A stretch of DNA of 64,000 nt from a virus, in the IMG/VR virus record IMGVR_UViG_3300045988_171102; one strand, given 5' to 3'. Under the pieces are notes generated by a model. The model had not been told where the DNA came from. It was given only the letters and a program-made list of their open reading frames with translations, and ran no database searches. This document shows, piece after piece, positions 6,729-43,853 of this stretch; within the stretch, counting starts at the first letter, position 1; each line of letters opens with the position of its first letter. The position numbers were made by a program, and so were the translations under genes.

Positions 6729-7043
6729 TTAAAATCCTTTCTCTATAATCTCTTTTTGCTGTTTATCATATGACTCAATATGTTTATTTGATTTTAAAAA
6801 CTTAATTGTATTAGCTACAGCTAAAGCAGGATTTTTACTTCCTTTAAGCTTCTTCAATACAATTGTAGAAATTGAGTATGCTCCAATCATAAGACCTTTT
6901 TTGTAAGCAGCATCATAAACATTTTTAACAGCTTCTTTAATTTTTTCATCAGGAAATGAATCAATTATTTCTTCAACTGTCATATCGTTTACTTCTTTTG
7001 AAATTATTTTCACCACCTTTCGATTTAAAGTCATAATAGACAT
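6729..7043 (-). CDS. hypothetical protein
   Basis: ORF in track with GGTGGTGA SD-like sequence upstream. Confidence 0.5.
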   Translation of the reverse strand: MSIMTLNRKVVKIISKEVNDMTVEEIIDSFPDEKIKEAVKNVYDAAYKKGLMIGAYSISTIVLKKLKGSKNPALAVANTIKFLKSNKHIESYDKQQKEIIEKGF

Positions 7044-10099: not shown

Positions 10100-10175
10100 T
10101 GGTGACACAGAAGAGATTTGAACTCTCACTTTACAGATTTTAAGTCTGCTGTCTCTGCCGTTGGACTACTGTGTC
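10100..10175 (-). tRNA. tRNA with anticodon UAA (Leu by anticodon) but a short variable loop; CCA encoded
   Basis: Hand-folded cloverleaf. Acceptor GACACAG/CTGTGTC; anticodon stem GCAGA/TCTGT with loop CTTAAAA; T arm GAGAG-TTCAAAT-CTCTT; A73; CCA. Confidence 0.65.
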
Positions 10176-10336: not shown

Positions 10337-10411
10337 TGGCTGAGCAGGCGGGAATTGAACCCACGATACTGGAGTCAAAGTCCAGTGCCTTAACCGCTTG
10401 GCGACTGCTCA
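10337..10411 (-). tRNA. tRNA-Gln (anticodon UUG), CCA encoded
   Basis: Hand-folded. Acceptor TGAGCAG/CTGCTCA with U1:A72 and G73 as in bacterial tRNA-Gln; anticodon stem CTGGA/TCCAG with loop CTTTGAC; T arm GTGGG-TTCAATT-CCCGC. Confidence 0.8.
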
Positions 10412-12526: not shown

Positions 12527-12928
12527 TCACCTATGAAGATTGCTGTATAGATGTACAAAACAATTTAATCCCATCATGTTAATAGCACAAAGGCGAGCGT
12601 CTTTTAATTCACTCTCAGTCAGTTGACCAATCTTATATCCTAATTGATTTTGATTAATTGTAGTAATCTGTTCCCCTAAGATTATCGACTCACTTCTCAA
12701 ACCATTTATGTCATTTGGTTTTATTTTCATATGCGTAGGTAAATCTTTCTTATGTTTAGAAGTCAACGGCATAACCGTAACAATACCACTATAATAATTA
12801 CCGATATCGTTACTAACAACAACGACTGGTCTTAATCCTGTTTGCAGAGAGCCTTGACCGCTTAAATTTGCGAAATATACATCTCCGCACTTAATATTCT
12901 TTACACTAACATTTTCTGCGACTCTCAT
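12527..12928 (-). CDS. MazF/PemK-family endoribonuclease toxin
   Basis: GDVYFANL...GLRPVVVVSND...VTVMPLTS...SIILGEQITTINQNQL matches the PemK/MazF pattern. SD AGGAAGGAG upstream. Confidence 0.8.
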   Translation of the reverse strand: MRVAENVSVKNIKCGDVYFANLSGQGSLQTGLRPVVVVSNDIGNYYSGIVTVMPLTSKHKKDLPTHMKIKPNDINGLRSESIILGEQITTINQNQLGYKIGQLTESELKDARLCAINMMGLNCFVHLYSNLHR

Positions 12929-13956: not shown

Positions 13957-14136
13957 TTATATTAGGTTTAATTCTTTAGTTAAGCGTAAAGCTATTACTG
14001 ATTTAAAATTTCTTACAGGTACAGATACAGTATTCATTCCATTGCCATATATCGCATGATTACCATTCTGCCTAAGAAAACTATACCCATTATTCCTTAA
14101 CTTTCTTAAAAAGGCTCTTTCATTTACCTGTTTCAA
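13957..14136 (-). CDS. HicA-like mRNA interferase toxin (59 aa, TTG start)
   Basis: Own translation (M)KQVNERAFLRKLRNNGYSFLRQNGNHAIYGNGMNTVSVPVRNFKSVIALRLTKELNLI. HicA pattern L.k.Gf...rq.GsH..y. The TTG start overlaps the upstream TGA stop (TTGA). Below the ORF-track cutoff. Confidence 0.6.
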   Translation of the reverse strand: MKQVNERAFLRKLRNNGYSFLRQNGNHAIYGNGMNTVSVPVRNFKSVIALRLTKELNLI

Positions 14137-14363
14137 TTATAAATTTCCTCCAATTCTTGAATAGTCGATGACAAATCATCAAGTAAATCCTCAAAGTTAT
14201 CATAGGACTCACAGTTCTCTTCATATCTTTCTGAGTTTTGCAAATTTTCAGGAACAGAATCTAAATACTCTTCTTCTTCGGAAAGAATATTTTCTAACTT
14301 ACCAATGCATATATTAATAGAATCTATTTCTACCTTAATTTTCTTTCTTCTTAAATTGTTCAT
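14133..14363 (-). CDS. small acidic protein (PENLQNSERYEE motif)
   Basis: ORF in track; translationally coupled to the HicA-like ORF. Confidence 0.55.
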   Translation of the reverse strand: MNNLRRKKIKVEIDSINICIGKLENILSEEEEYLDSVPENLQNSERYEENCESYDNFEDLLDDLSSTIQELEEIYN

Positions 14364-14388
14364 ATATATTCATTTACCTTTCACTATT

Positions 14389-14418
14389 ATTGTACAAAAT
14401 TTTCCTATCCAAATTCAA
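14389..14418 (-). promoter_or_regulatory. sigma70-like promoter for the 14363 operon
   Basis: On the minus strand: TTGAAT, 18-nt spacer, TACAAT with TG immediately upstream. Back-to-back with the plus-strand promoter at 14441. Confidence 0.4.
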
Positions 14419-14475
14419 CCCACAAAATATGGAAATAACATTGACAAAATTCTCCAAATAGTGTATCATTATGTT

Positions 14476-14577
14476 AGGCTTAGAAAATGGGTAGGCTAAC
14501 GCTGACCATCTTTCGATAGCTTACTTGGTATAGACATCACCAGATTTTCGCAGGTCGAAGTGATGTCTATTTTTTTA
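14476..14577 (+). ncRNA. candidate small RNA A (about 100 nt), antisense orientation to the surrounding operons
   Basis: Promoter TTGACA (14441-14446), 17-nt spacer, TATCAT (14464-14469). Terminator ATAGACATCAC...GTGATGTCTAT (14530-14570) followed by T7. No plausible ORF. TSS is estimated. Confidence 0.45.
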
Positions 14578-14594
14578 TGTATAAAACCTTTGTT

Positions 14595-14879
14595 TTAAAC
14601 ATCTTCCGATACATAATGTTCGTACCGTAATCTATTTAACAATTCTTCAAGCGTAATTGATAGGGCGTATTCTTTGTCTGTCATACCGCCTATAATAGAT
14701 TTTTTAAGACTAAATCTGCTTACTATCTGTATGTCAGGCGAATTTGCAACAGAGCGAAACGAAATAATAACATAACATCTCAAATCTTTACCATAGAGCC
14801 GAATGTCATTTTCTACTCTTTCTATCATCTCGGTATGATTAACTTCAATGGGTTTATCGTTATTGTCAAACCACGGCAT
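14595..14879 (-). CDS. hypothetical protein
   Basis: ORF in track; overlaps the upstream gene end. Confidence 0.5.
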   Translation of the reverse strand: MPWFDNNDKPIEVNHTEMIERVENDIRLYGKDLRCYVIISFRSVANSPDIQIVSRFSLKKSIIGGMTDKEYALSITLEELLNRLRYEHYVSEDV

Positions 14880-15084: not shown

Positions 15085-15164
15085 AAAGCTACATTCCTCC
15101 TTATTTAAGATAATTTTTTAAAAAAGTATTGACTTTTTTAAAATTGCGATGTATTATAATGCTG

Positions 15165-15252
15165 TGTAAGGTTTTGTTATTTACTTACGCAAGCATAAAC
15201 TATTAGTTTTTTAAGCGGAAAAGACTCAGTCAAAAGCTGAGTCTTTTCTGTT
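15165..15252 (+). ncRNA. candidate small RNA B (about 90 nt)
   Basis: Promoter TTGACT (15129-15134), 17-nt spacer, TATTAT (15152-15157). Hairpin AAAAGACTCAG-TCAAAAG-CTGAGTCTTTT (15219-15247), then CTGTT. The U-tract is weaker than in A and C. Confidence 0.35.
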
Positions 15253-15302
15253 ATACAAAAAAAAGCTTGACTGTAAACTGAAAAAGTAGTATCATATAAG
15301 TG

Positions 15303-15396
15303 TGGAAGTTTGTTTTTTAATTTCTACTATGGTAGATTAGTTTTTTTATCCTTTCTTCCGTACCTCGCACACTGTTATACAGTGTGCGTTTTTTTT
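15303..15396 (+). ncRNA. candidate small RNA C (about 95 nt)
   Basis: Promoter TTGACT (15267-15272), 17-nt spacer, TATCAT (15290-15295). Terminator CGCACACTG-TTATA-CAGTGTGCG (15366-15388) followed by T8. Confidence 0.45.
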
Positions 15397-21724: not shown

Positions 21725-21997
21725 TTAAATCTCCCTATACATTTTCTTTGCGGTTGGTACGCCATACTCTTGAACAAGATTCCAAAGCACATCCAACCCT
21801 TGTATATCTATATGCAAAATTTCTGTCGAATCTACAACACCTTGCAACCAAGCTTGTGCTGTTTCATCTGCAATATTCATGAATTTTCCATATATCTTTT
21901 TACCAGTATCGGATTCTAAAAGAACAGGTAAATCTTTGGAATAAATTTCTTTCCTTGTATATGGTTGTTTCTTTATGATACTTTTTGATCTCCCCAT
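21725..21997 (-). CDS. small hypothetical protein
   Basis: ORF in track; overlaps the end of the methylase-helicase gene. Confidence 0.5.
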   Translation of the reverse strand: MGRSKSIIKKQPYTRKEIYSKDLPVLLESDTGKKIYGKFMNIADETAQAWLQGVVDSTEILHIDIQGLDVLWNLVQEYGVPTAKKMYREI

Positions 21998-24957
21998 CTT
22001 ATTACATAACCTTCTTCCGTTTTTTCTTTATACATGAGGTTCTGCAACATATTACTATCCACTCCAAAACGTTCATATAATTCATCGTCTGTCAAATCCT
22101 GATCCTTCATAAACAGATTTAATTTGTCTTTTACAAGAATCATTTTTAACAGATTGCTTTCAATACTATTCTCGTAAGTTACAAAATACACTTGCTTGAA
22201 TTCCGTTGAAGTATAACGAATAAAGCGGAAATAATACTGACTCATGCTGGAGTTGTTCCAGTGCAATTCTGGAATAATACACTTATTCACAAAATCAATA
22301 TTCATACTTGCAGATAAGCTCTGCTGTGTGCTTATTAGAATTCCGTTTGTTGTTTCTTTTAACTCTTTGACAATTTTCTTTCTCTGTTTCAATGTAGTTT
22401 CATTTCCAGTAATCACAAATACAGGTCTACCCGGAAATGCTTTTTTGATTTCCTTTGCATATGCATCTACTACTGAAATATGACGCACACCAATAGCAAC
22501 TCTTTCATCAGAAAATTCGTCTAAAAGTGATAATACAGTTTTGAATTTTTCCGGCATTATCGACTGATTGTACTCTCTCAACATCTGAGGCGCAGCGCAA
22601 ATCTTCAAAAGTGCAAGCAACTGATTCAAAATTTTCAACATTGCATCTTTCCGGCTGTTCCCAGTTTTCGCAAACAGATATTCCATTTTATAGAACTCAT
22701 CCAATGCAACCTTATACAGACGTTTCTCTTCTTCTCCCATTTCACAAGCAATCTGTATAATCTCATAAAGCTGTTTGCCAGTAATTTCTTCAAATGTACG
22801 TGTGATAATCGTCTTATCAATCATCTGTTTCAAAATGTCTGCATTAAGAATATCTTGTGTGAACTGAGATACGCCAAATACAGTGATTTTCTCTGGAATA
22901 TGACTCGCTGCAAATAACTTACTACCCTTACGATATGCTGGATATGGCTGTAAAAAATATTCATTTATCCGGTTTTCCAGTTCTCCATCTTTGTTGCGTT
23001 CCATAATATACTCACATTCAGACAGCATATTGATAGAATTGTTGTACAATAATTCAAACTGAGGATAAATTTCAGTGATATTATTCCTTGTGCTTGTACC
23101 CGTCATCAGTGTTTTATACTTCAGCCGGCGAAAAGCATTTAATACGGCTTTTGTCCGTTTACTATCCTGATTACTCATATTATCCGATTCGTCAAAAATC
23201 AAAACGGCTTTCTGGCAGATTGATTTTACATATCGCTTGATGAATTTATGATATTTACACATCATATTTAAAGTGATAATTACAAATTGACCTTCTTTGA
23301 TATTTTGAATATCTGCAAGGTTTCCAATCATAACAAAATCAATACCGTACTGATCCAATACATCCTGCCAATTGTTCTTGATTGAGATTGCCGTACTCAC
23401 AATAAATACATTTTTCACATGATCGTGCTGCAAACGATATTTACCTATTGCAATTCCGGCGAATGTTTTACCGCTTCCCTGTTCCCACTGTATGAAACTA
23501 TATGGTTTCTGAATAAACAGATTCAGATCCGCTTTCTGAGCATCATTCAGCTTTATAGTTCTTTCATCATCCGTCAATGTAAACTCATCAAGCCACTTTG
23601 CTATTTTTTTGTTTGGTTGCATTTCAGAAAATGGCATATTCTGGATATCATACATCTTTCGCTTTTTATTCACGATCTTATCAATCCATTTTGACTGAAA
23701 ATGCCCCATTGAAAAGCCTTGCAACACAACATCGTTTATAGATGTAAAATCGCCATTATACTCAAATGTATAATTGTTTTTAATAATTCTACCAGTTCTA
23801 TCAAGTTTTGGATTCTGTGAACATAACGCCATTTTTAAATGCTTAATAACATCTTTCGGCTTGATTTTAAGTTGTTCCCATTCGTCCCATTTGATATGAT
23901 CCGGTTTTTTCTGTGTCTTATACCTATTGACATATTCACAACATTCTGCATACTGGCTGCATGTTTTCGGATTTCGTTTGATATCATACAGGAGTTTCTC
24001 AACCTTAAAACTCCACGCTTCATCGTCTTTACTATTTCTTACGGTTTCCAGAAAAATCTTGTTTTTAATCTGTTCTCTTTCTTCTGTAATAGGCTTTAAA
24101 TACTGCTCCCATACTTCATCGGAAGTAACACCGGAAAGTATCTCTGTACTATATGGAACTTCTTTCGTATATTCAGATTTTTTCTGAAAGAACACTATTT
24201 TGGTCTTGTAGTTCTCAACGCCCAAATGCTTAAAAGTATTCTTGTCAAGTTCTACTTGGCAGATAAAATTAAAATGCTCATTCATTCCGTCAATCATGCC
24301 ACCATCAGAGAAACTGTCAGCACAAAACGACATAGGCACGATAATAGCCATAATTCCGGCTGGCTTTAACAGTTCCGCAGCTTTCAGACAATAATAATAT
24401 TCTGACAAATAGTTACTGTCATCTTTTCTCCATCTCAGATTATACGGTGGATTTCCCAGAACATAATCAAAAGTAATTTTCGGCTCATAAAAACGAATAT
24501 CTGTATTTTCCAGCTTTGCATCTGGATAAAGGTATTTTGCCACTCTGTACGGCTTCCCGTCTAATTCGCAACCGTAAAAATTCGATTCAACCGGCGCACA
24601 ACTAATAAATGAACCATGTCCACAAGTAAGATCTGCTATCAAATCAGTATTTGAAATATGTAAACAATTATAAATCCATTCAACCAGCTTATAAGGTGTA
24701 AAGAACTGTCCTTGCTCAATATCTGCTTTCGCTCTCTGATAATCATAGTAACTATCATAGTTGTTGAACTCTAAACCATGAAGCCCACCTAATCCAGTAT
24801 ATGCATTGAAAATATCATCTTTTGAAATACCTGTTTCTACTTCTGGCAAATCGTTATTCACAATATATTCAATTTTTGTATTGATGTCTTCCCTCATTTT
24901 CTGTGGGATTACTTCATTTGTACATTTATACTTCATGACTTGTATATCTCCATTCAA
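21973..24957 (-). CDS. fusion of N6-adenine DNA methyltransferase (N-terminal) and SNF2-family helicase (C-terminal)
   Basis: Methyltransferase motif I DLTCGHGSF and motif IV GNPPYNLRW. Helicase Walker A QGSGKTFAG, motif II LIFDESDN and SNF2-type motif III LMTGTSTRNN. Confidence 0.8.
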   Translation of the reverse strand: MNGDIQVMKYKCTNEVIPQKMREDINTKIEYIVNNDLPEVETGISKDDIFNAYTGLGGLHGLEFNNYDSYYDYQRAKADIEQGQFFTPYKLVEWIYNCLHISNTDLIADLTCGHGSFISCAPVESNFYGCELDGKPYRVAKYLYPDAKLENTDIRFYEPKITFDYVLGNPPYNLRWRKDDSNYLSEYYYCLKAAELLKPAGIMAIIVPMSFCADSFSDGGMIDGMNEHFNFICQVELDKNTFKHLGVENYKTKIVFFQKKSEYTKEVPYSTEILSGVTSDEVWEQYLKPITEEREQIKNKIFLETVRNSKDDEAWSFKVEKLLYDIKRNPKTCSQYAECCEYVNRYKTQKKPDHIKWDEWEQLKIKPKDVIKHLKMALCSQNPKLDRTGRIIKNNYTFEYNGDFTSINDVVLQGFSMGHFQSKWIDKIVNKKRKMYDIQNMPFSEMQPNKKIAKWLDEFTLTDDERTIKLNDAQKADLNLFIQKPYSFIQWEQGSGKTFAGIAIGKYRLQHDHVKNVFIVSTAISIKNNWQDVLDQYGIDFVMIGNLADIQNIKEGQFVIITLNMMCKYHKFIKRYVKSICQKAVLIFDESDNMSNQDSKRTKAVLNAFRRLKYKTLMTGTSTRNNITEIYPQFELLYNNSINMLSECEYIMERNKDGELENRINEYFLQPYPAYRKGSKLFAASHIPEKITVFGVSQFTQDILNADILKQMIDKTIITRTFEEITGKQLYEIIQIACEMGEEEKRLYKVALDEFYKMEYLFAKTGNSRKDAMLKILNQLLALLKICAAPQMLREYNQSIMPEKFKTVLSLLDEFSDERVAIGVRHISVVDAYAKEIKKAFPGRPVFVITGNETTLKQRKKIVKELKETTNGILISTQQSLSASMNIDFVNKCIIPELHWNNSSMSQYYFRFIRYTSTEFKQVYFVTYENSIESNLLKMILVKDKLNLFMKDQDLTDDELYERFGVDSNMLQNLMYKEKTEEGYVIRWGDQKVS

Positions 24958-32351: not shown

Positions 32352-32573
32352 ATGACAATAAATAACAATAGCAATAACAATAATTTACAAAATAAAACTT
32401 CAGAAGCTCGAAAAAAAGCAAGTGCAAAATATACTAAAAAAACATATAAAAACAAAACGGTATATATTAAATTAACTGATTTAGAAAAGATTGACGCATA
32501 CCTTCAAAGCGTGGGTATGAGCTGCACACAGTTTTTTTATAAAGCGTTAAGGGATAATGGTGTAGATGTATAA
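32352..32573 (+). CDS. ribbon-helix-helix (CopG/Arc-like) DNA-binding protein
   Basis: Start moved to MTINNN, which follows SD GAAGGTGA. KTVYIKLTDLEKIDAYLQSVGMSCTQFFYKALRD fits the strand-helix-helix pattern. Confidence 0.45.
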   Translation: MTINNNSNNNNLQNKTSEARKKASAKYTKKTYKNKTVYIKLTDLEKIDAYLQSVGMSCTQFFYKALRDNGVDV

Positions 32574-32606
32574 ATATTATTGTTTATGGCAGGCAGGAAG
32601 ATAGGC

Positions 32607-32631
32607 AAGAAAAAAAGCACAAAAGTGCTTT
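32607..32631 (-). terminator. intrinsic terminator oriented for leftward transcription
   Basis: The AAAGCAC-AAAA-GTGCTTT hairpin has its U-run (T7) only on the minus strand. Confidence 0.45.
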
Positions 32632-34364
32632 AACAAATTAAAGTGTTATAAAAAATATAAGTATTTATTTCGTTGAAGTGCATTTATATATACTTATAAA
32701 TAATATAACTGTATAATCAATGAATGCACGAAGTCTTTTAATACTTTAATGTACTAAAGTGTTATAATAAATATAACTGTATTTTCTCCCGCTCCCACGA
32801 ACTTATAAAACAGCTCTTCAAGCTCTTTTCTTCTTTTCTAACTGTCCGCTTTTTGATGTTTTGTGGACAATTAACAAGTTTTTTAATGCCGATGAAGTAA
32901 GATAACGCAAGCTGCTAAAACAAATAAGAAACAATTTTTTTCAAATTTTAAGAATTAAAATAATCAAAAAACCTCCGATATTATCTATCTTTTTTTTGAT
33001 TTTCTTAAAGTTTAAAGTATAATGCAAAAGCAAAAAAATACAATAATTTATAATTCAAATTTCATAACGCTAACGCTTTATGCCGTACACTAAACGGCTA
33101 TATATAGGGGGGTAGTTTACATTCCCTAAACGATTTTCATTTCCAATAAAGGGCATAGTACACTCATCCAAATATTCGCCACCAAAAATCCAATTATGAA
33201 TTTCCCCACCTCCCCTATCTCTAAAATCCCCTATTTTTTACTCTTATATTTTTGACCACTTTTTTTCAACCAATTTAAAAATTATTAATGCTTTATAAAT
33301 TCCTTAAATACCGCATATTCAAGCCATTTTTTACTTATTAAACCTACACAACATTATTTTCATATTTAACCCCTTTAAACTTCCTTAAAACCTCATTGCC
33401 AAGCCATTTTCACGAACTTAACATAGAATTAATAAAAAAACGCAATTTTACAAATTATAGTATCCCCAATAATACAATTAATATATTCTTTAGGTTTTAA
33501 GCCATTTTTTAAATAATTTACGCTTTAAATAATTTCATAATCTTAATAGATTCAATATTCAAGTTCATTCCAATTCATTTTCTTAAAATACCGTATATCT
33601 AAATGCAAAAAAATACTTTATTTTTTTCAACTGCTATTTCTGTAACCATATACAACTTTTAACTTATTACTCTTATTTCCCATTATTGCTTAATAATCAT
33701 ATTAAAAAACAATTTCAATTCTTAGTTTAACCACTCATTTTTGTATGAAGTGGTCTTTTTATTTCTTAAAGATCTAATTAAACAACCACACTAACGCTAC
33801 AGTAAAATTACAAAAATTATTATGTCAGACAACAAATTGAAAATAAGAGACGAGTAAACTCGGATGTTATTTTCTGTTTGTTGTCGTAAACAGTTGTTGA
33901 TTGTTTTACCTTCAGGTGAAACAAGAAATGACTGTTTACTTTTATTGGCTTGGCAACAATTATGTGATAAGAAATTTATTTGTTATAATTCACAATAATA
34001 AGTATCTCTTATGCTCTTCATAGTCTCTATACGCTCTCAGATTGCAATGAACTCTCTTTTATGTAAAAAATACCCTAATACACCAATAACTTTGCTTACA
34101 ATCAATTTTTAAGCCTTTTAGAGCACATTCTGTTTTATTTAATTCTTTAATAATTACTTTTAAAAAATACAACATATCTCTATTTTGCTCTATTTTGCCC
34201 TGTATTCGATTTTTTGGTTTAGCAATGTAATTATACTATTTTTGTATTTTAGTTTAATACAAGCCAATTTTCGCAAGAATAGAATAAGTTTTGAACGCAA
34301 ATGCTTATTACATATTGATTTAATATTAATTTAATAATATTTTTTACTTTTTTTACTGAAACTA

Positions 34365-34392
34365 TTGCAATTTTAAAATTATCTGTTATAAT
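34365..34392 (+). promoter_or_regulatory. strong sigma70-like promoter with extended -10, firing rightward
   Basis: TTGCAA, 16-nt spacer ending in TGT, then TATAAT. Confidence 0.55.
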
Positions 34393-34410
34393 ATATTTTA
34401 GACATATCAG

Positions 34411-34426
34411 TTACAAGTGACGGTTA
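34411..34426 (-). promoter_or_regulatory. copy c of the 16-nt motif (TAACCGTCACTTGTAA on the minus strand)
   Basis: Plus strand reads TTACAAGTGACGGTTA. On the minus strand, TTGTAA is followed after 17 nt by TATTAT. Inverted relative to copy d. Confidence 0.5.
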
Positions 34427-34451
34427 AAGATTATTTGTATTTACATGTTCA

Positions 34452-34557
34452 GGATTAAATAAGCGTTAGCGTTTTAATCCGTTTAAGGTTTAATTATCGC
34501 TAAGCGTTAGCTTAGTGAGAAATAAACCGCAATCAGCCCCCGTAGCGTTAGCTACGG
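34452..34557 (+). repeat. three consecutive stem-loops sharing the apex AGCGTTAGC (GC-GUUA-GC)
   Basis: GGATTAAA(taAGCGTTAGCgt)TTTAATCC at 34452-34480; GCTAAGC-GTTA-GCTTAGT at 34499-34516; CCGTAGC-GTTA-GCTACGG at 34540-34557. Confidence 0.75.
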
Positions 34558-34621
34558 CACAAAAGAATGAATATATCTAACTAATAAGTTTTCTTATTGG
34601 TTTGTTTCTTTTTACTTATGT

Positions 34622-34637
34622 TCACCGTCATTTGTAA
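34622..34637 (+). promoter_or_regulatory. copy d of the 16-nt motif (TCACCGTCATTTGTAA), pointing at the rightward genes
   Basis: Read directly from the plus strand. TTGTAA is followed after 17 nt by TATTTA. Confidence 0.5.
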
Positions 34638-34731
34638 TTTATGTTTTATTTGACTATTTATTTTATTCTTTTGTTTCTTATTTCTTATTTTCTTAATTTT
34701 ATTTTGAATTTAAAGAAAGAACCAAAGAAAG

Positions 34732-34769
34732 GATTTACTTATTACCCCTAAAGGGGTAATAAGTAAATC
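34732..34769. repeat. perfect 18-bp inverted repeat (GATTTACTTATTACCCCT aa AGGGGTAATAAGTAAATC)
   Basis: Read directly. Flanked by TTTCTTAT repeats and an extremely AT-rich tract. About 200 bp upstream of the Rep-like gene. Confidence 0.85.
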
Positions 34770-34970
34770 TAATAATATTAAATTTCTTATATTTATTTCT
34801 TATATTATTTATATTATTAAATATATATTATATTATAAATTTATATTATAAATAACAAAAAGGTGTGAGTAAAAAACGAACACCGTATTAATGAACTTTT
34901 ATTTATAAAAGGTTGTGTGCAAAAAATAGTCGAAAAGTGGTTACAATTTTGTTACAAAAAGGATGATTGA

Positions 34971-35990
34971 ATGGTGTATACATATAAAAATGAGTTTGTC
35001 AATTTTAAGTTACTTGTAAATCAATCAGTTACTTCTAACATGACAATACCAAAAAACATTATTGATGAATTATTCAAAAATAAAAATGAAAAAGTTTGGT
35101 TTGCGTATTATGTTATGAGAGGGCTTGGGCGGTTAATTATGTATTCACAAGCAATACATAGTTGGAAGCAAGATAAATTTCAGGCAAGCAATCAAAAAAA
35201 TGGTAATAAGATTATTGCCGATTATTTTAATAACATAAGACTTATTGAAATCAAACGCAGCTTCACTGACTTGACCAAAGACATATTTGAGAATTTTTCA
35301 TTTTATGTAATTTTTGAAACTTTATTTCCTTTTGTAGATAGAAAGTTTTATAAGTCACTTGAGAAAATCTTTTTTGATGGATTAGAATATTTCATTAAAC
35401 AAGGTAAGATTGTACGAATTTGTAATCGTAGAATTGGTTATCCGTATTATCGGACTATGTATTGGAACATCACTGTTGATATAAAGCCAATTTACATTAC
35501 AGATGAGTTTGCAGATGAATTAACAGTTGAGACACTTAACTTACCTAATAATATTTTAAACACTTCTTACTCATTTAAATCTGAATGGTTAAGTCAATGT
35601 TTTAAGATTACCGAAGCGAATCCAATGAAGGCATTAAGGATGTCGAGAGTTTTGTGTTTTATAATAAATAAAAGAATTAAGCGATATCATAAAAAAATTG
35701 CATATCTATCATTTAGGACATTGAGCAACCTTACAGGACTTTGTGAACGAAGTATTAAAAATTATGTAAAAGAATTACGAGATAATAATTTACTTTATTA
35801 TGACAACTATATTTTAATTGCGAATCCTCTGAAGCAGGTGTGTAAGTATAGCAAAAATTTTTATTGCCTGCCTGAAGATAAAGACTATTTAGAGAAAATA
35901 GTTGAAAAATATAGAATTAAAAAAATTGAAGCAGAACAAAATACAAAAGCGAAACAACCAATAAATGAAATGATAGAAAATTTTGAATGA
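34971..35990 (+). CDS. putative replication initiator / DNA-binding protein with C-terminal winged-HTH
   Basis: ISFRTLSNLTGLCERSIKNYVKELRDNNLL is HTH-like. Sits next to the iteron/palindrome/AT-rich region. Confidence 0.4.
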   Translation: MVYTYKNEFVNFKLLVNQSVTSNMTIPKNIIDELFKNKNEKVWFAYYVMRGLGRLIMYSQAIHSWKQDKFQASNQKNGNKIIADYFNNIRLIEIKRSFTDLTKDIFENFSFYVIFETLFPFVDRKFYKSLEKIFFDGLEYFIKQGKIVRICNRRIGYPYYRTMYWNITVDIKPIYITDEFADELTVETLNLPNNILNTSYSFKSEWLSQCFKITEANPMKALRMSRVLCFIINKRIKRYHKKIAYLSFRTLSNLTGLCERSIKNYVKELRDNNLLYYDNYILIANPLKQVCKYSKNFYCLPEDKDYLEKIVEKYRIKKIEAEQNTKAKQPINEMIENFE

Positions 35991-37082: not shown

Positions 37083-39959
37083 ATGGCTCAAAGCAAAGCT
37101 GTAAATATACCGTTATTGGACGGTAAAGATGTGTATATTGCAAATCATTATATTAACAATAGTTTGAACGGATATACACTTAGAGACAAATTTGGTGACT
37201 TAAATATAAAGAAATTTGTCGCCACAATGGATTATAGTTTAGACTTAATTAAATTGAATGATGTTTACAAAGAAGTGTATCGAAATAGAAATTTTTATGA
37301 ATATGTTGGCAGAAATAAAAAATATACAAGGCATGTTATAAATGTCACTTTTAAATACAGCAATAAACTTTACAATCGGGCTGGTTCAGGTTTGTATATT
37401 AAATTCGGTTACTCCCCTACCGAAGTTATATTAGAAAATAATGCTTGTATTAAAGATGGTACTTTAATAGCTATTCGAGTATTGCCAGATGGTAAAGAAA
37501 AAAATATTACAGAAGATTATCTTGTGAAGTCTCCCCTTTCACAAGAAATCTTAGGTGAATATTTTTTTTATGATAAAGAATTATCTGTTTATAGAGCTAA
37601 AGATAATATTGAGACATTAACCTCAATTTCTGACATTAGAACTGATTTATATGAAAATGGTTTTGTTTGTGACGGAATTAAGTATGTACGATTTAAACGC
37701 AGTAGTGGTAGCAGTCGTGTAGGTAAATGCCTATTTATTGACGAAAAATTATACAAAAAGATGCATAAATGGGAAATGTGTGGATTAAATGTAAAGAATG
37801 GTGTTAAATGTGATTTGGCGAGTCTTGAGCCTTATATAGCATTAACTCTTTCTTCTATCATAGACACAATAACCATTGAACCAAATGAAATTCTTGTCAT
37901 CCCCGATTATGAAAGCAAATTTACGACAACTTGCGTTGCTACAGAACTTGATAAGGATAATAGACTTATTTCGTCAGCAAAACAAGTTGATATGTCAAAT
38001 AGTATTTGGGATGGACAGTCCTTATTAGATGTTAGTAAATTTGAGGACTACAAAAATTATGGTATGTTGTTATTGCGTACACGTTTTTTTAAATCTGCTT
38101 GTTTTAATACTAATATTCAGCAATGGTTTACTGATAACGGAATCACTGACATATCGCAATTAAATGGATATACTCAAGCCACAAAATTGTCTGATATTAA
38201 ATTAATTACTACTCCAAGCAGTATTAAATATTTAAAATTTGGTTCTTTAGAAGATTGGCTATGGACAATTGAACCACAATTTGGTGTTGTAAAACATGAA
38301 AAGCCTACTCATTATTTTGATGGTAGAATGGTTCAAACACATTATCAATTGCTTAATACTTTACAATTGACGAAAGATGAAGTAGAGAAATTTATTCAAC
38401 CTACAATTGACTATATTATGAAATTGAAAACAGACAGTGCTGTATTTAGGCATCACATTAAATATTCAATTCCTGAATATACAAATGCTGAATCTCAACA
38501 ATTGGCGAATAAAAATGATATTGTATATTACTTGCTTGGACTAAATAATAAATTTAGCCAAACCAAAATGTACAAAGACTTTTGTAATGAAACTGTTAAG
38601 GCATTTGTTAAAAACTGTCGCAAGGGACATATCTTCGTACATGGTAATTATTCAACACTATTTGGCAACCCTATCGAAATGCTACAAAGTTGCATTGGAC
38701 GATTTAATGGAGAACCTAAAATTAAAGCAGGCACAGTACATTGTACGATGTTTAATAATGGTGATAAGTTAATAGGAAGTCGTTCTCCTCATGTTACAAT
38801 GGGAAATATTTTATGTTGTCAGAATGTAATATATGAGGACATTAATAAATATTTTAATTTAAGTAATGAGATAGTATGTGTCAATAGTATTCGTGATAAT
38901 TTATTAGAGAGATTAAGTGGTTCAGATTTTGATTCTGACACTGTTTTGTTGACAGATAATAAAATATTATATCAAGCTGCAATTCGTAATTATGATAATT
39001 TTCTTGTACCGACAAAATTAGTGTCAAGTAAAAAATGTGAGCGTAGATATACGGCACGAGATAAAGCTGAACTTGACATTAAGACAGGAACAAATAAAAT
39101 TGGAGAAATCATTAATTTATCTCAAGAATTAAATTCTAAGTTATGGGAATTAATTTATAACGGATATGATATACAATCAAATGAGGTACAATCACTTTAT
39201 GCTGATATTGCACAATTAGATGTGATGAGCAATTTGGAGATTGATTCAGCTAAAAGAGAAAATCCGGCAAACAATTCTATGGAGCTTAAATTATTAAAAG
39301 CTAAATATGCTGTATATGATAACAAAGGTAGATATGTCCGACCACTATTTTTTAAATATTTGGATAAGTATAAGGGGTATGACAATAATCGAAAACATTA
39401 TCGGCTTTATAATACTACGATGGATTATGTCGAACTTGCTTTAAATAAAATACCTCGTGTAAGAAATAATGCTCCCCTTTTAAATTTATCAGACATTTTT
39501 AAATCATCTAATGCAATTGATGGACAAGTGTATTATGAACAAGTTGAGCGTATATTGTCCGCCATTCAAGATACTAAAGACGAAATTGGTCATTTGTGGT
39601 CAAAGTATAAATCTAAAACTGGGAATGTTAATAAAGGTGAAGATGCTTTCTCTTATGAGCAGTGTTTAAAGATGACAGAAGAAGCAAAAGAAGATTGCGT
39701 AGAATATATTAATTCACTTAAAATTTCTAAAAAAACAATGCGTTATCTTTTATCTTTAATCGAAAAACCCACACATAAAAATTATTCAGCATTATTTTTA
39801 TCAGCAATATTCACTTACCACAATATAAATTTTGATGAATTAGTTGCCGATAGTCAAGAAAATGTATTTCAAATTAAAGAATGTCCGATAGAATCAGAAC
39901 AGTATGACATTAAGTTATATGACTTTAATTACCGATATGTAAGTAATGTGAATACATAA
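37083..39959 (+). CDS. YonO / cellular RdRP-like single-subunit two-barrel RNA polymerase (putative)
   Basis: RSPHVTMGNILCCQNV ... LSGSDFDSDTVLLTDN resembles the catalytic block of RNAi-type RdRPs and their phage homologues (DxDxD metal loop). Confidence 0.65.
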   Translation: MAQSKAVNIPLLDGKDVYIANHYINNSLNGYTLRDKFGDLNIKKFVATMDYSLDLIKLNDVYKEVYRNRNFYEYVGRNKKYTRHVINVTFKYSNKLYNRAGSGLYIKFGYSPTEVILENNACIKDGTLIAIRVLPDGKEKNITEDYLVKSPLSQEILGEYFFYDKELSVYRAKDNIETLTSISDIRTDLYENGFVCDGIKYVRFKRSSGSSRVGKCLFIDEKLYKKMHKWEMCGLNVKNGVKCDLASLEPYIALTLSSIIDTITIEPNEILVIPDYESKFTTTCVATELDKDNRLISSAKQVDMSNSIWDGQSLLDVSKFEDYKNYGMLLLRTRFFKSACFNTNIQQWFTDNGITDISQLNGYTQATKLSDIKLITTPSSIKYLKFGSLEDWLWTIEPQFGVVKHEKPTHYFDGRMVQTHYQLLNTLQLTKDEVEKFIQPTIDYIMKLKTDSAVFRHHIKYSIPEYTNAESQQLANKNDIVYYLLGLNNKFSQTKMYKDFCNETVKAFVKNCRKGHIFVHGNYSTLFGNPIEMLQSCIGRFNGEPKIKAGTVHCTMFNNGDKLIGSRSPHVTMGNILCCQNVIYEDINKYFNLSNEIVCVNSIRDNLLERLSGSDFDSDTVLLTDNKILYQAAIRNYDNFLVPTKLVSSKKCERRYTARDKAELDIKTGTNKIGEIINLSQELNSKLWELIYNGYDIQSNEVQSLYADIAQLDVMSNLEIDSAKRENPANNSMELKLLKAKYAVYDNKGRYVRPLFFKYLDKYKGYDNNRKHYRLYNTTMDYVELALNKIPRVRNNAPLLNLSDIFKSSNAIDGQVYYEQVERILSAIQDTKDEIGHLWSKYKSKTGNVNKGEDAFSYEQCLKMTEEAKEDCVEYINSLKISKKTMRYLLSLIEKPTHKNYSALFLSAIFTYHNINFDELVADSQENVFQIKECPIESEQYDIKLYDFNYRYVSNVNT

Positions 39960-42697: not shown

Positions 42698-42713
42698 AGG
42701 GCGGTGAGCGTTA

Positions 42714-43853
42714 GTGGCAAACAATACAACTACCAAAACTCAGCGTGAATATAAATGTAAAATATGTGGAAAGTCATATAAAAATATTACAGGCAATTTT
42801 TATAAATCTGCTAATTCTTTATATTTCATTAGTAATAATGGCATTATAGATGTGTGCGTAGATTGCTTAAAGGAGTTATTTAGTCAATTAAGTAAAAAAT
42901 ATGATTCTGATAGAATGGCACTTATTGCAATTTGTGCTTTAACCGATTGGTATTACGATGAAAGTGCATATAATACAGCGATAAAAAATCGAGAAGAATT
43001 TAGTATTGGTGTATATGCAAGACTTATGAACACTGTTAAGTATAAAGGAAAAACTTTTATTACCAGTGTTGCAGAGAAAAAACTGGGGGAAACAACCATT
43101 CAAATGGTTGAGCAGACTCATGATGTGGGTTGGAATGATATTGATAAAAAGAACAGAGATACTGTAATTGAGATTTATGGATATGATCCATTCCCTGATA
43201 ATGATTTTTCAGATAAAAGTAGAAAATATTTATTTAATACAATAATAGATTTTCTTGATGAAGAAACTCAAGAAGATGCTTTCAAGAAATCACAAATCAT
43301 TCAAATTGTTGTTAATAACGAAATGATTCAAAGGTGTAATGCAAAAATTGCTTCACTTGATGAAACAAGAGATCTTGAGCAAATTAAAAACTTAAGTAAC
43401 ATTATTACCTCGAAAGTTAATGATAATGATAAAATCGCAAAAGAAAACGAAATCTCCGTTAGAAATCGTAGTAATAAAAAACAAGGTAAAGGTACATTTA
43501 CAGATTTGCAAAAAGAATTAAGGTTAAAAAACTTTGATGAAGCAGAAGCAAATTATTACAAGCAATTACAATCTGAGGGCAGTGCATGGGCTGTTAATCA
43601 ATCTATGCAAGCAATAAAGAAAAATTCCTTTTTTGATGAAAGTGACCAAAAAGAAATTGTAGATATACAAAGAGAACTGATAGAAAAAAAGGATAAGGCA
43701 TTAGATGATGCTTTAGAAGAAAACAGATTATTGTATGTAAATATTGAGAAATATAAATCTCAAATAAAGGAACTTGAAAATAAAAATAGCGAACTTAATG
43801 AAGAGTTGACAAGCTTTAATAACAAACATAATACAGGTGATGACAATGAGTAG
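42714..43853 (+). CDS. putative terminase small subunit (zinc-ribbon N-terminus, coiled-coil C-terminus)
   Basis: Lies immediately upstream of, and overlapping, the large terminase gene. CKICGK...CVDC. GTG start. Confidence 0.4.
   Translation: MANNTTTKTQREYKCKICGKSYKNITGNFYKSANSLYFISNNGIIDVCVDCLKELFSQLSKKYDSDRMALIAICALTDWYYDESAYNTAIKNREEFSIGVYARLMNTVKYKGKTFITSVAEKKLGETTIQMVEQTHDVGWNDIDKKNRDTVIEIYGYDPFPDNDFSDKSRKYLFNTIIDFLDEETQEDAFKKSQIIQIVVNNEMIQRCNAKIASLDETRDLEQIKNLSNIITSKVNDNDKIAKENEISVRNRSNKKQGKGTFTDLQKELRLKNFDEAEANYYKQLQSEGSAWAVNQSMQAIKKNSFFDESDQKEIVDIQRELIEKKDKALDDALEENRLLYVNIEKYKSQIKELENKNSELNEELTSFNNKHNTGDDNE

What the first reader, a model, noticed from the sequence alone, without database searches (positions are those of the whole stretch)
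14476..14577. Small RNA candidate A is complementary to the hairpin apexes and to the SD-start region of the small-terminase-like gene
Predicted RNA A contains GGUAGGCUAACGCUGACC (14491-14508). Its core GCUAACGCU is the exact complement of AGCGUUAGC on all three hairpin tips at 34462, 34503 and 34544. The same stretch can pair with GGUGAGCGUUAGU at 42702-42714, which lies between the SD (GGGCGGUGA) and the GTG start of the 42714 gene: 12 pairs including one G-U, with one mismatch. I noticed the 8-mer AGCGTTAG or its complement at least 8 times (also at 33070, 33791 and 14496). My rough expectation is about one for an 8-mer of this composition in 2 x 64 kb. A trans-acting RNA that touches both the rightward leader and a packaging gene would be an unusual immunity or timing device.
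Basis: partly seen in the sequence, partly recalled or inferred. Interest (0 to 1): 0.7.

Follow-up and report, generated by a model that had tools for sequence, protein, structure and literature searches.

The report
Conserved prophage small RNA, doubtful targets
A roughly 100-base non-coding RNA gene with its own promoter and terminator is real and very well conserved in a widespread group of human-gut prophages, but its proposed pairing with three hairpin tips is at best specific to this lineage, and its proposed pairing with the packaging gene is a chance match.

Summary
RNA A (14476-14577, + strand) is a real, self-contained gene. It has a TTGACA-17-TATCAT promoter, a long 5' hairpin with apex GGC-UAAC-GCU, and an intrinsic terminator with a U7 tail. 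Thirty-three IMG/VR contigs and eight ENA gut contigs carry it almost unchanged. It varies about three times less than the neighbouring protein genes. Rfam has no match.

The complementarity is real but miscounted. AGCGTTAG occurs 7 times, not 8 or more (0.78 expected). Five of the seven lie in the 2.4-kb control region.

Four conserved hairpins (H1-H3 and a leftward one, L1) carry AGCGUUAGC at the apex, and RNA A carries the exact complement. Another hairpin-tipped copy outside the control region arises by chance with P about 0.02.

Functional pairing is weakly supported. Only 4 of the 33 RNA A contigs have the hairpin array, and one near-complete genome has the array but no canonical RNA A. 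A diverged relative keeps the three hairpins through compensatory changes but not the 9-mer. Net pairing energies are -7 kcal/mol (H1, L1) and -2 (H2, H3).

The site at 42707 is chance: it has no hairpin, is not conserved in diverged relatives, and its start region ranks about 16th of 75.

Most likely RNA A is a trans-acting base-pairing sRNA whose main target lies elsewhere.

The parts
14441..14469 (+). RNA A promoter, TTGACA-17-TATCAT
   Evidence: It matches 11 of 12 consensus positions. Across 27 haplotypes both hexamers are invariant except position 4 of the -10 box (C/T), while the spacer and discriminator vary. This is the conservation pattern of a working promoter.
14476..14522 (+). RNA A 5' stem-loop (helices P1-P4) with apical GGC-UAAC-GCU
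   Evidence: The whole RNA folds at -31.5 kcal/mol, z = -3.35. The consensus structure shows only one-sided, pair-preserving changes and no double compensations. This is the least variable stretch, with pi = 0.0145 over 14483-14515.
14495..14503 (+). GCTAACGCT, the exact complement of the hairpin-tip 9-mer AGCGTTAGC
   Evidence: Position 14503 is T or C in relatives, and the adjacent base 14494 (G or A) also varies, with all four combinations seen, so there is no covariation signal.
14530..14577 (+). RNA A intrinsic terminator: an 11-bp plus 5-bp hairpin followed by U7
   Evidence: The 3' arm is invariant in all relatives although it was not part of the search pattern.
14353..14597 (.). Smallest mosaic unit shared among relatives: the RNA A gene plus the divergent leftward promoter at 14418-14389
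   Evidence: Homology starts at 14353 in most loci. It ends at 14597 in L015 and at 14605 in L026.
34365..34392 (+). Rightward early promoter, TTGCAA-16-TATAAT with an upstream TG
   Evidence: It is conserved in all relatives.
34452..34480 (+). H1: an 8-bp stem closing the 13-nt loop UAAGCGUUAGCGU
   Evidence: The net pairing energy with RNA A is -7.2 kcal/mol. The apex is invariant in 11 close relatives even when the search pattern left it unspecified. In L260 it reads AAGCGAUAGCG on a compensated stem.
34487..34528 (+). H2: a 19-position stem with a GUUA tetraloop, and 12-bp potential complementarity to RNA A 14492-14503
   Evidence: The net energy is only -1.8 kcal/mol. In L232 two changes repair both stem mismatches, and L226 has a U-G wobble that pairs only on the + strand. 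The loop is GUCA in 162981, 160913 and L255. L260 has an unrelated sequence that still forms a long hairpin.
34540..34557 (+). H3: CCGUAGC-GUUA-GCUACGG
   Evidence: The net energy is -2.1 kcal/mol. In L260 the stem is the same and the loop is AUUA.
34581..34613 (+). t1: an AU-rich 8-bp hairpin plus a U-rich tract, a candidate attenuator or the 3' end of a roughly 200-nt leader RNA
   Evidence: It is almost invariant even in L260.
33063..33082 (-). L1: CAUAA-AGCGUUAGCG-UUAUG, on the leftward strand
   Evidence: It is conserved in every relative whose held sequence covers this stretch, while the sequence just past the hairpin diverges. The neighbouring hairpin at 33082-33098 has changes that give G-U wobbles only on the - strand. 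The net energy with RNA A is -6.9 kcal/mol. It is replaced by a different hairpin in L260.
33791..33798 (-). AGCGTTAG copy with no hairpin, judged a chance or decaying copy
   Evidence: It is mutated in L230 (CTAACACT) and L019 (CTACCGTT), whose RNA A is canonical.
42707..42714 (+). AGCGTTAG copy between the ribosome-binding site and the GTG start of the YonG-like gene, judged chance
   Evidence: It has no hairpin and is not conserved in L260, L261 or L262. Its energies are weak and its rank is ordinary.

Best explanation
The region 14476-14577 is a genuine, independently transcribed small non-coding RNA gene of about 100 nt. It is carried as a self-contained unit (promoter, RNA, terminator) by SPbeta-like temperate phages of human-gut Clostridia that encode a YonO-type RNA polymerase.

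It most likely works as a trans-acting base-pairing regulator. Its reading head would be the top and 3' shoulder of the 5' hairpin, GGCUAACGCU followed by the invariant GACCAUCUUUCGAUAGC.

The RNA is nearly invariant in phages whose early control regions are unrelated. Its principal conserved partner is therefore most likely a host transcript, or a phage transcript shared by all carriers, and not the hairpin array.

The AGCGUUAGC-tipped hairpins belong to a separately conserved structured early leader: three hairpins plus the attenuator-like t1. In this lineage, pairing of RNA A with the open loops of H1 and L1 is possible as a secondary interaction.

Shown: the gene anatomy, its conservation, its autonomy as a unit, and the exact complementarity. 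Inferred: that it is transcribed, that it acts in trans, and what it targets.
For: Gene anatomy: a consensus-like promoter whose hexamers are conserved while the spacer varies, a stable 5' hairpin, and a terminator with a U7 tail.

Distribution: near-identical copies are in 33 IMG/VR contigs and in all 8 ENA gut-metagenome loci examined. The neighbouring 94-aa gene is seen on contigs up to 1.3 Mb, which indicates integrated prophages.

Selection on sequence: pi is 0.03 in the RNA, against 0.09 and 0.21 in the two adjacent protein genes and 0.11 in the left flank. That is selection on the sequence itself, not just on having a promoter and terminator, and it argues for a sequence-specific partner.

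Autonomy: mosaic breakpoints at 14353 and at 14597 or 14605 bracket the unit.

Not coding: the 10-codon ORF inside it loses its ATG or its frame in L152 and L247, and the 31-aa ORF on the opposite strand loses its ATG in L005 and L025.

Independence from the array: only 4 of the 33 carriers have the array, and eight 20-kb ENA loci show no further hairpin-tipped motif.
Against: No transcript data exist. No target has been identified.

No base pair in RNA A shows a double compensatory change.

Most relatives were found with exact-match patterns, so their similarity is partly forced by how they were collected.

The match between RNA A's apex and four conserved hairpin apexes is unlikely by chance (P about 0.02 for any further hairpin-tipped copy in the window). 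This explanation treats that match as secondary.

The convergent layout also allows a purely cis-antisense role.
Confidence: 0.42

Rival explanations
1. RNA A would be an immunity or timing RNA. Its apical GCUAACGCU pairs with AGCUUAGC-type loops, specifically AGCGUUAGC, in the nascent rightward leader (H1-H3) and leftward leader (L1). The pairing would change leader folding or stability so that transcription stops at t1 or at the 38-nt palindrome, or the duplex is cut. That would lower expression of the Rep-like gene, the YonO-like polymerase and therefore the late genes. This resembles P4 CI RNA acting on seqA and seqC.
For: RNA A has exact 9-nt complementarity to four conserved hairpin apexes, extending to 12 bp at H2. 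All four are on the sense strand of the two divergent early leaders.

The complement sits at the apex of RNA A's own hairpin, where antisense RNAs usually make first contact.

The chance of another hairpin-tipped copy in the window is about 0.02.

H1 and L1 present the motif in open loops of 13 and 10 nt, with net energies of -7.2 and -6.9 kcal/mol.

A second match lies in the same leader: RNA A nt 27-42 pairs with 34928-34944, net -6.9 kcal/mol, rank 2 of 75 start regions.

All four array-bearing IMG/VR contigs that also contain the RNA A neighbourhood carry RNA A.

The P4 precedent is described in PMC4825925.
Against: RNA A is present in 29 contigs that lack the array, and its sequence is invariant regardless of the control region.

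Contig 160913 has the array and L1 but no canonical RNA A.

The H2 loop is GUCA in three genomes, with no compensating change in RNA A where RNA A is known.

L260 keeps the hairpins, but with apexes AGCGAUAGC, GCGAC-UUUA-GUCG and AGCAUUAGC that no single RNA could match.

RNA A's loop is only 4 nt, and H2 and H3 are tight tetraloops with a net energy of about -2 kcal/mol.

Simple duplex energies of the same size occur elsewhere in the window.
Confidence: 0.22
2. RNA A would act in cis as an antisense insulator. It is transcribed head-on against the 72-aa/94-aa operon, whose stop codon is 18 nt from RNA A's terminator. It is therefore perfectly complementary to any read-through RNA running into the variable toxin-antitoxin cargo downstream. 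Polymerase collision, or cleavage of the duplex, would uncouple the cargo, which has its own divergent promoter inside the conserved unit. The match to the hairpin tips would be coincidence.
For: The geometry fits. No terminator-like site lies on the - strand between 14595 and RNA A.

RNA A is linked to the 94-aa gene in about 30 of 33 contigs.

The unit always includes the divergent leftward promoter, and toxin-like cargo follows it: a HicA-like gene and a MazF-like gene here, and PemK in the ENA loci.
Against: A pure insulator needs only a promoter and a terminator. The transcribed sequence is nevertheless 3 to 7 times less variable than its flanks.

RNA A persists where the 94-aa gene is absent, in L015 and L026.
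Confidence: 0.2
3. The AGCGTTAGC hairpins, including the one inside the RNA A gene, would be binding sites for one phage or host protein. That protein could be an antiterminator or stabiliser that reads RNA hairpins, as lambda N reads boxB. It could instead be a DNA-binding regulator, for which orientation does not matter; the site at +20 of RNA A would then be an operator.
For: Five hairpins with unrelated stems share the same 9-mer apex.

If the RNA A locus is read on the - strand, all five are in the sense orientation of the local genes.

H2 and H3 are near-palindromes at the DNA level.
Against: No candidate binding protein was identified.

The flanking half-sites differ between sites.

The - strand version at RNA A is a poor hairpin, with two internal mismatches.

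L260 keeps the hairpins with different apexes.

The loop varies within the clade, with GUCA at H2.
Confidence: 0.1

Closest known systems
P4 CI RNA (targets seqA and seqC), and by the same logic P1/P7 c4 RNA and N15 CA RNA: antisense immunity RNAs that cause premature termination in a phage early leader
   Same: Each is a small stable RNA with short complementarity (about 8-15 nt) to several sites in the leader of an early or anti-immunity operon, upstream of terminator-like hairpins. The P4 mechanism is as summarised in PMC4825925. The P1 and N15 cases are from my own knowledge.
   Different: Those RNAs are processed out of the same leader transcript that holds their targets. RNA A has its own promoter and terminator and lies 20 kb from the hairpins.

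RNA A has no Rfam match to the c4 or IsrK/P4-type families.

The hosts are Gram-positive gut Clostridia.

RNA A and the target array do not co-occur across relatives.
Generic trans-encoded base-pairing sRNAs carried by prophages, such as IsrK of Gifsy-1 (PMC4825925)
   Same: RNA A sits in a horizontally mobile prophage region as a stand-alone transcription unit, ends in an intrinsic terminator, and has a conserved exposed segment.
   Different: No target is known. There is no sequence or structure homology to any of the 4227 Rfam families.
Convergent antisense RNAs of type I toxin-antitoxin systems in Firmicute prophages, such as bsrG/SR4 and txpA/RatA (from my own knowledge)
   Same: RNA A has the same convergent orientation at the 3' end of a neighbouring gene, inside a prophage region rich in toxin genes.
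   Different: No conserved small hydrophobic toxin ORF lies opposite RNA A. The 31-aa ORF there loses its start codon in relatives, and the 94-aa neighbour is not hydrophobic. A layout closer to type I systems is seen instead at 33030-33210.
The non-coding RNA at the head of the SPbeta late operon, described in PMC5467207 as an 'unannotated non-coding RNA' upstream of yonK
   Same: The phage type is the same: it has a YonO-like polymerase and YonG, YonD and YonB homologues. In both cases a structured non-coding stretch heads an operon.
   Different: This comparison concerns the three-hairpin leader, not RNA A. The leader here sits behind a host-type sigma-A promoter ahead of the early genes. 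No sequence comparison with SPbeta was made.

Membership tests
P4 CI / P1 c4 / N15 CA-type immunity antisense RNA | Sequence and structure homology to the curated RNA families | tested here: not met
   Rfam 15 gave only two tRNAs at gathering thresholds for the whole window. It gave nothing meaningful at E up to 10 for 14350-14650.
P4 CI / P1 c4 / N15 CA-type immunity antisense RNA | The RNA is processed from the same leader transcript that carries its target sites | tested here: not met
   RNA A has its own promoter and terminator and lies about 20 kb from the hairpins. It moves as an independent mosaic unit.
P4 CI / P1 c4 / N15 CA-type immunity antisense RNA | Short complementarity to two or more sites in the leader of the controlled operon | tested here: met
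   RNA A has a 9-nt exact match to H1, H2, H3 and L1, and up to 12 bp at H2.
P4 CI / P1 c4 / N15 CA-type immunity antisense RNA | The RNA and its targets co-occur and co-vary among related phages | tested here: not met
   Only 4 of 33 RNA A contigs have the array. Contig 160913 has the array without canonical RNA A. The H2 loop variant GUCA is uncompensated. The L260 apexes diverge in three different ways.
P4 CI / P1 c4 / N15 CA-type immunity antisense RNA | Pairing causes premature termination and confers immunity | not testable with these tools
   This needs reporter assays or in vitro transcription.
Trans-encoded base-pairing sRNA (generic) | Own promoter and Rho-independent terminator, and non-coding | tested here: met
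   The small ORFs are not conserved.
Trans-encoded base-pairing sRNA (generic) | A seed more conserved than the rest of the RNA, with conserved complementary targets | tested here: inconclusive
   The 5' hairpin is the least variable part (pi 0.0145), and 14504-14520 is invariant. However, no target conserved across carriers was found in the sequence held.
Type I toxin-antitoxin antisense RNA | A conserved small hydrophobic toxin ORF overlapped by, or adjacent to, the antisense RNA | tested here: not met
   The 31-aa ORF at 14374-14469 loses its ATG where the -10 box reads TATTAT, in L005 and L025. It has no Pfam hit.
Protein-sequestering multi-hairpin RNA (CsrB/RsmZ type), considered for the H1-H3 leader | Several hairpins presenting one identical loop motif, plus a cognate binding protein | tested here: inconclusive
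   The repeated apex is present in this clade but not in L260. No binding protein was identified, and Rfam gives nothing.
Small terminase (TerS), for the 42714 gene | Homology to a TerS family | tested here: not met
   Pfam, PHROGs and PDB give no terminase hit. Positional homologues hit PF27269 YonG_N. Only its position upstream of TerL suggests a packaging role.

The most novel reading that the evidence does not exclude
RNA A would be an RNA-based immunity or superinfection-exclusion factor of SPbeta-like gut prophages. It is encoded away from its targets and pairs with AGCGUUAGC loops in both divergent early leaders of phages of this clade. The single-base loop variants seen in relatives (GUCA at H2; GAUA and AUUA in L260) would be escape alleles that create RNA-defined heteroimmunity groups. 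Carriage of RNA A by phages without the array would be inter-phage warfare.
Probability: 0.15. Interest if true: 0.75.

Novelty: new member of a known kind. Interest (0 to 1): 0.38.

Why it matters
RNA A is an uncatalogued small-RNA family. It is very strongly conserved and is carried by a common group of human-gut prophages: its neighbour gene is found on hundreds of metagenome contigs, some of chromosome size.

Phage-encoded regulatory RNAs are poorly known in Gram-positive gut bacteria. A conserved, constitutively promoted sRNA sitting among toxin-like cargo is a good candidate for a lysogenic-conversion or phage-competition factor.

The three-hairpin leader ahead of the Rep-like and YonO-type polymerase genes keeps its structure across diverged relatives. 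It is therefore a candidate control point for the early-to-late switch in this little-studied phage type.

If the RNA A/loop pairing were shown, it would extend P4/P1-style RNA immunity to an unlinked, trans-encoded RNA in Firmicute phages.

Tried and rejected
- **Cultured phages:** DNA searches of INPHARED with 13.5-16 kb and 32.5-35 kb of the window found nothing.
- **Genome collection:** an exact RNA A pattern gave 0 hits in genome contigs.
- **Loose array patterns:** two- and three-copy patterns in IMG/VR mostly returned unrelated coding repeats, because GCG-TTA-GC encodes Ala-Leu-Ala. An extra copy in L009 and L019 lies inside a 205-aa ORF. One in L247 is an ordinary terminator stem.
- **Plain duplex folding:** it gives sprawling, meaningless duplexes and many equal-energy off-targets. 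I replaced it with a windowed duplex energy plus opening-energy calculation.
- **Covariation between the RNA A seed variants and their targets:** this could not be done.
- **First metagenome scan:** it failed because I used 11 instead of 10 unspecified bases. It was repeated correctly.
- **attP hypothesis:** I asked whether the cluster of contig ends at 34801-34845 marks attP, which would separate the leader from the Rep-like gene in lysogens. This is rejected, because a 374-kb contig carries them contiguously.
- **Type I toxin at RNA A:** rejected, because the ORF is not conserved.
- **CRISPR-like mini-array, replication iterons and a phage-polymerase hairpin promoter for H1-H3:** I considered these from the anatomy only. 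I set them aside because the stems differ, the spacing is 41 nt, and the hairpins lie downstream of a sigma-A promoter.
- **Paralogues and diverged copies:** a covariance model of RNA A finds no paralogue in the window and no homologue in the diverged loci L259-L263.
- **RNA A status of the L260 phage:** not obtainable. No listed homologue of the methylase-helicase lay on that contig, and the closest one fetched, L263, has a different neighbourhood.

Full report
**What the window is.** The window has leftward genes up to about 32.2 kb, a 2.4-kb non-coding control region (32573-34971), and rightward genes from 34971.

The rightward genes are, in order:
- a Rep-like HTH_36 protein;
- a 958-aa protein that matches phrog_8308 (E = 1.5e-98) and, weakly, the PHROG annotated as 'RNA-dependent RNA polymerase', which makes it a YonO-like two-barrel RNA polymerase (some homologues carry PF05183);
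- an exonuclease;
- a tyrosine recombinase;
- a 379-aa gene whose positional homologues hit PF27269 YonG_N;
- TerL, followed by YonD-like and YonB-like genes.

No cultured phage is similar at the DNA level. The nearest cultured relatives by protein are Clostridium, Bacillus and SPbeta-like phages, and Enterocloster bolteae phages of about 100 kb.

The exact Rep-like protein occurs on a 374-kb human-gut contig with the same surroundings. The element is therefore an integrated SPbeta-like prophage of a gut Firmicute.

**Check of the observation.** AGCGTTAG or its complement occurs 7 times, not 8 or more, against 0.78 expected. The 9-mer AGCGTTAGC occurs 5 times against 0.13 expected.

Five of the seven copies lie in the control region. 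The two outside it (14496 and 42707) are not more than chance allows for the 8-mer. For the 9-mer, a further copy outside the control region has P = 0.119, or P = 0.02 if it must also sit at a hairpin tip as it does in RNA A.

The '12 pairs' at 42703-42715 are counted correctly.

**RNA A is a real gene.**
- It has a TTGACA-17-TATCAT promoter.
- It has a 47-nt irregular 5' hairpin with apex GGC-UAAC-GCU.
- It has a strong terminator hairpin plus U7. The whole RNA folds with z = -3.35.
- Exact-pattern scans found it in 33 IMG/VR contigs, and it is in all eight ENA loci fetched through the neighbouring 94-aa protein.
- Across 27 haplotypes of the shared module, the RNA varies about three times less (pi 0.03) than the adjacent 94-aa gene (0.09), and less still than the 72-aa gene (0.21) or the left flank (0.11).
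- The promoter hexamers are fixed while the spacer varies.
- Homology breakpoints at 14353 and at 14597 or 14605 show that it travels as a self-contained unit together with a divergent leftward promoter.
- The small ORFs in or opposite it are not conserved.
- Rfam has no family for it, and a covariance model finds no paralogue in the window.
- The consensus structure is supported only by one-sided, pair-preserving changes.

**Which motif copies are real.** Four copies are conserved and sit at hairpin apexes: H1 (34452-34480, 13-nt loop), H2 (34487-34528), H3 (34540-34557) and L1 (33063-33082, on the - strand).

Strand-specific wobble changes support RNA structure: in H2 on the + strand, and in the hairpin next to L1 on the - strand. 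In L232, two changes repair both mismatches of the H2 stem.

The copy at 33791 has no hairpin and is mutated in two relatives whose RNA A is canonical.

The copy at 42707 has no hairpin and lies in the spacer between the ribosome-binding site and the start codon. In diverged relatives only the ribosome-binding site and the start codon are conserved there: GGCGGTGAGAATTAATG, GGTGGTGGGAATATG and GGCGGTGATAAGTTG. I count both copies as chance, which agrees with the expectation of about 0.75.

**Does RNA A pair with the hairpin tips?** I computed duplex energy plus the cost of opening both partners.

| Site | Net energy (kcal/mol) |
|---|---|
| H1 | -7.2 |
| L1 | -6.9 |
| H2 | -1.8 |
| H3 | -2.1 |

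The best register anywhere in the 42714 start region gives -3.2, about 16th of 75 start regions. The best-scoring start regions are those of 6729..7043 (-10.0) and of the Rep-like gene (-6.9), and both pair with RNA A nt 27-42. Pairing with the open loops H1 and L1 is therefore plausible but not outstanding. Pairing with the packaging-gene start is not supported.

**Comparative evidence.** In the relatives that carry it (five IMG/VR contigs and six gut-metagenome contigs), the leader is about 99% identical to the window's, so it carries no covariation signal.

Three observations weigh against a dedicated partnership:
1. Only 4 of the 33 RNA A contigs hold the array or L1, although many of the others are 80-114 kb long. 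Conversely, contig 160913 (100 kb), whose two ends abut in the window's coordinates, has the array and L1 but neither exact RNA A anchor.
2. The H2 loop is GUCA in three genomes, with RNA A unchanged in the one where it is known.
3. The more distant relative L260 (YonO-like protein 84% identical) has the same gene order, and its leader folds into the same three hairpins plus t1 (z = -9.5). H1 there has a re-paired stem and apex AAGCGAUAGCG. H2 is a different sequence that still forms a 20-position stem. H3 has loop AUUA. L1 is replaced by another hairpin.

The architecture is therefore under selection, but the shared 9-mer is not. RNA A's status in that phage could not be determined.

**Interpretation.** The hairpin array is a conserved structured early leader behind a sigma-A-type promoter. 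It ends in an attenuator-like hairpin and U-tract that is nearly invariant even in L260.

RNA A is a separate and much more widespread sRNA. Strong sequence conservation that does not depend on the type of control region points to a sequence-specific partner shared by all carriers, either host or common phage RNA. That is my best explanation (0.42).

In form it would resemble P4 CI RNA acting on seqA and seqC (PMC4825925).

A cis-antisense insulator role against read-through from the convergent 72/94-aa operon is also possible (0.20). A shared protein site is less likely (0.10).

**Limits.** There is no expression data. The relatives were gathered with exact-match patterns. Full genomes of the carriers could not be read. 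All energies are predictions.

Noticed in passing
15129-15255 and 15267-15396 (+ strand): There are two more units that look like small-RNA genes, each with a promoter and a terminator. They lie just right of RNA A and are antisense to the leftward gene cluster. One has TTGACT-17-TATTAT with the hairpin AAAGACTCAG...CTGAGTCTTT. The other has TTGACT-17-TATCAT with the terminator CGCACACTGT-TAT-ACAGTGTGCG plus T8, and it contains CCUUUCUUCC, which resembles an anti-Shine-Dalgarno sequence. Parts of these units recur in relatives.
   Followed up: partly
37083-39959 (+): This 958-aa ORF is a YonO-like single-chain two-barrel RNA polymerase (phrog_8308 E = 1.5e-98; weak hit to the 'RdRP' PHROG; homologues carry PF05183). 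With the YonG, YonD and YonB homologues downstream, it makes this an SPbeta-like prophage of a human-gut Firmicute.
   Followed up: yes
34732-34769, and 34801-34845: A perfect 38-bp palindrome lies here. Its 4-nt centre reads TAAA in the window but TTTA in every relative, so the centre is flipped. Just to the right, in extremely AT-rich sequence, four IMG/VR contigs end within 45 bp of one another. A 374-kb contig spans the spot, so it is not the attachment site and is probably an assembly break.
   Followed up: partly
33030-33210: This stretch has a layout like a type I toxin-antitoxin locus. A 27-aa hydrophobic ORF (33126-33209, - strand) keeps its frame through a block of changes in relatives. 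It is followed by two hairpins, one of them L1. A convergent + strand promoter (32996-33023) would produce an RNA carrying CGCUAACGCU, the same apex as RNA A. There is no family hit.
   Followed up: partly
34928-34944 and 14502-14517: The invariant stretch of RNA A, CUGACCAUCUUUCGAU, has a 7+7-bp match just upstream of the ribosome-binding site of the Rep-like gene. The net energy is -6.9 kcal/mol, rank 2 of 75 start regions. One relative (L231) has a mismatch there.
   Followed up: partly
12527-12928 (-) and 13957-14136 (-): Toxin-like cargo lies next to RNA A: a MazF/PemK-like gene (phrog_1936, E = 5e-26) and a 59-aa HicA-like ORF (PF07927, E = 3.5e-4). In other carriers the unit is followed by an 84-aa gene and a PemK toxin.
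   Followed up: no
33828-33939: Two adjacent long imperfect hairpins (28-nt and 26-nt arms) lie in the control region. They are 94-100% conserved in close relatives and partly conserved in L260. Their function is unknown; they could be an origin or another RNA.
   Followed up: no
10100-10175 and 10337-10411 (-): The phage encodes tRNA-Leu(UAA) and tRNA-Gln(UUG).
   Followed up: no
21973-24957 (-): This 994-aa gene is a fusion of an N6-adenine methyltransferase (Eco57I-like) with a DEAD/SNF2-type helicase. It is widely conserved, with homologues down to about 50% identity in Paenibacillus genomes.
   Followed up: no
L007 and L023 (IMG/VR contigs 3300032605_001456 and 3300032722_000030): The RNA A 18-mer GGTAGGCTAACGCTGACC also occurs in an unrelated, GC-richer context in these two contigs. 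One or two such hits are expected by chance in a collection of this size.
   Followed up: no
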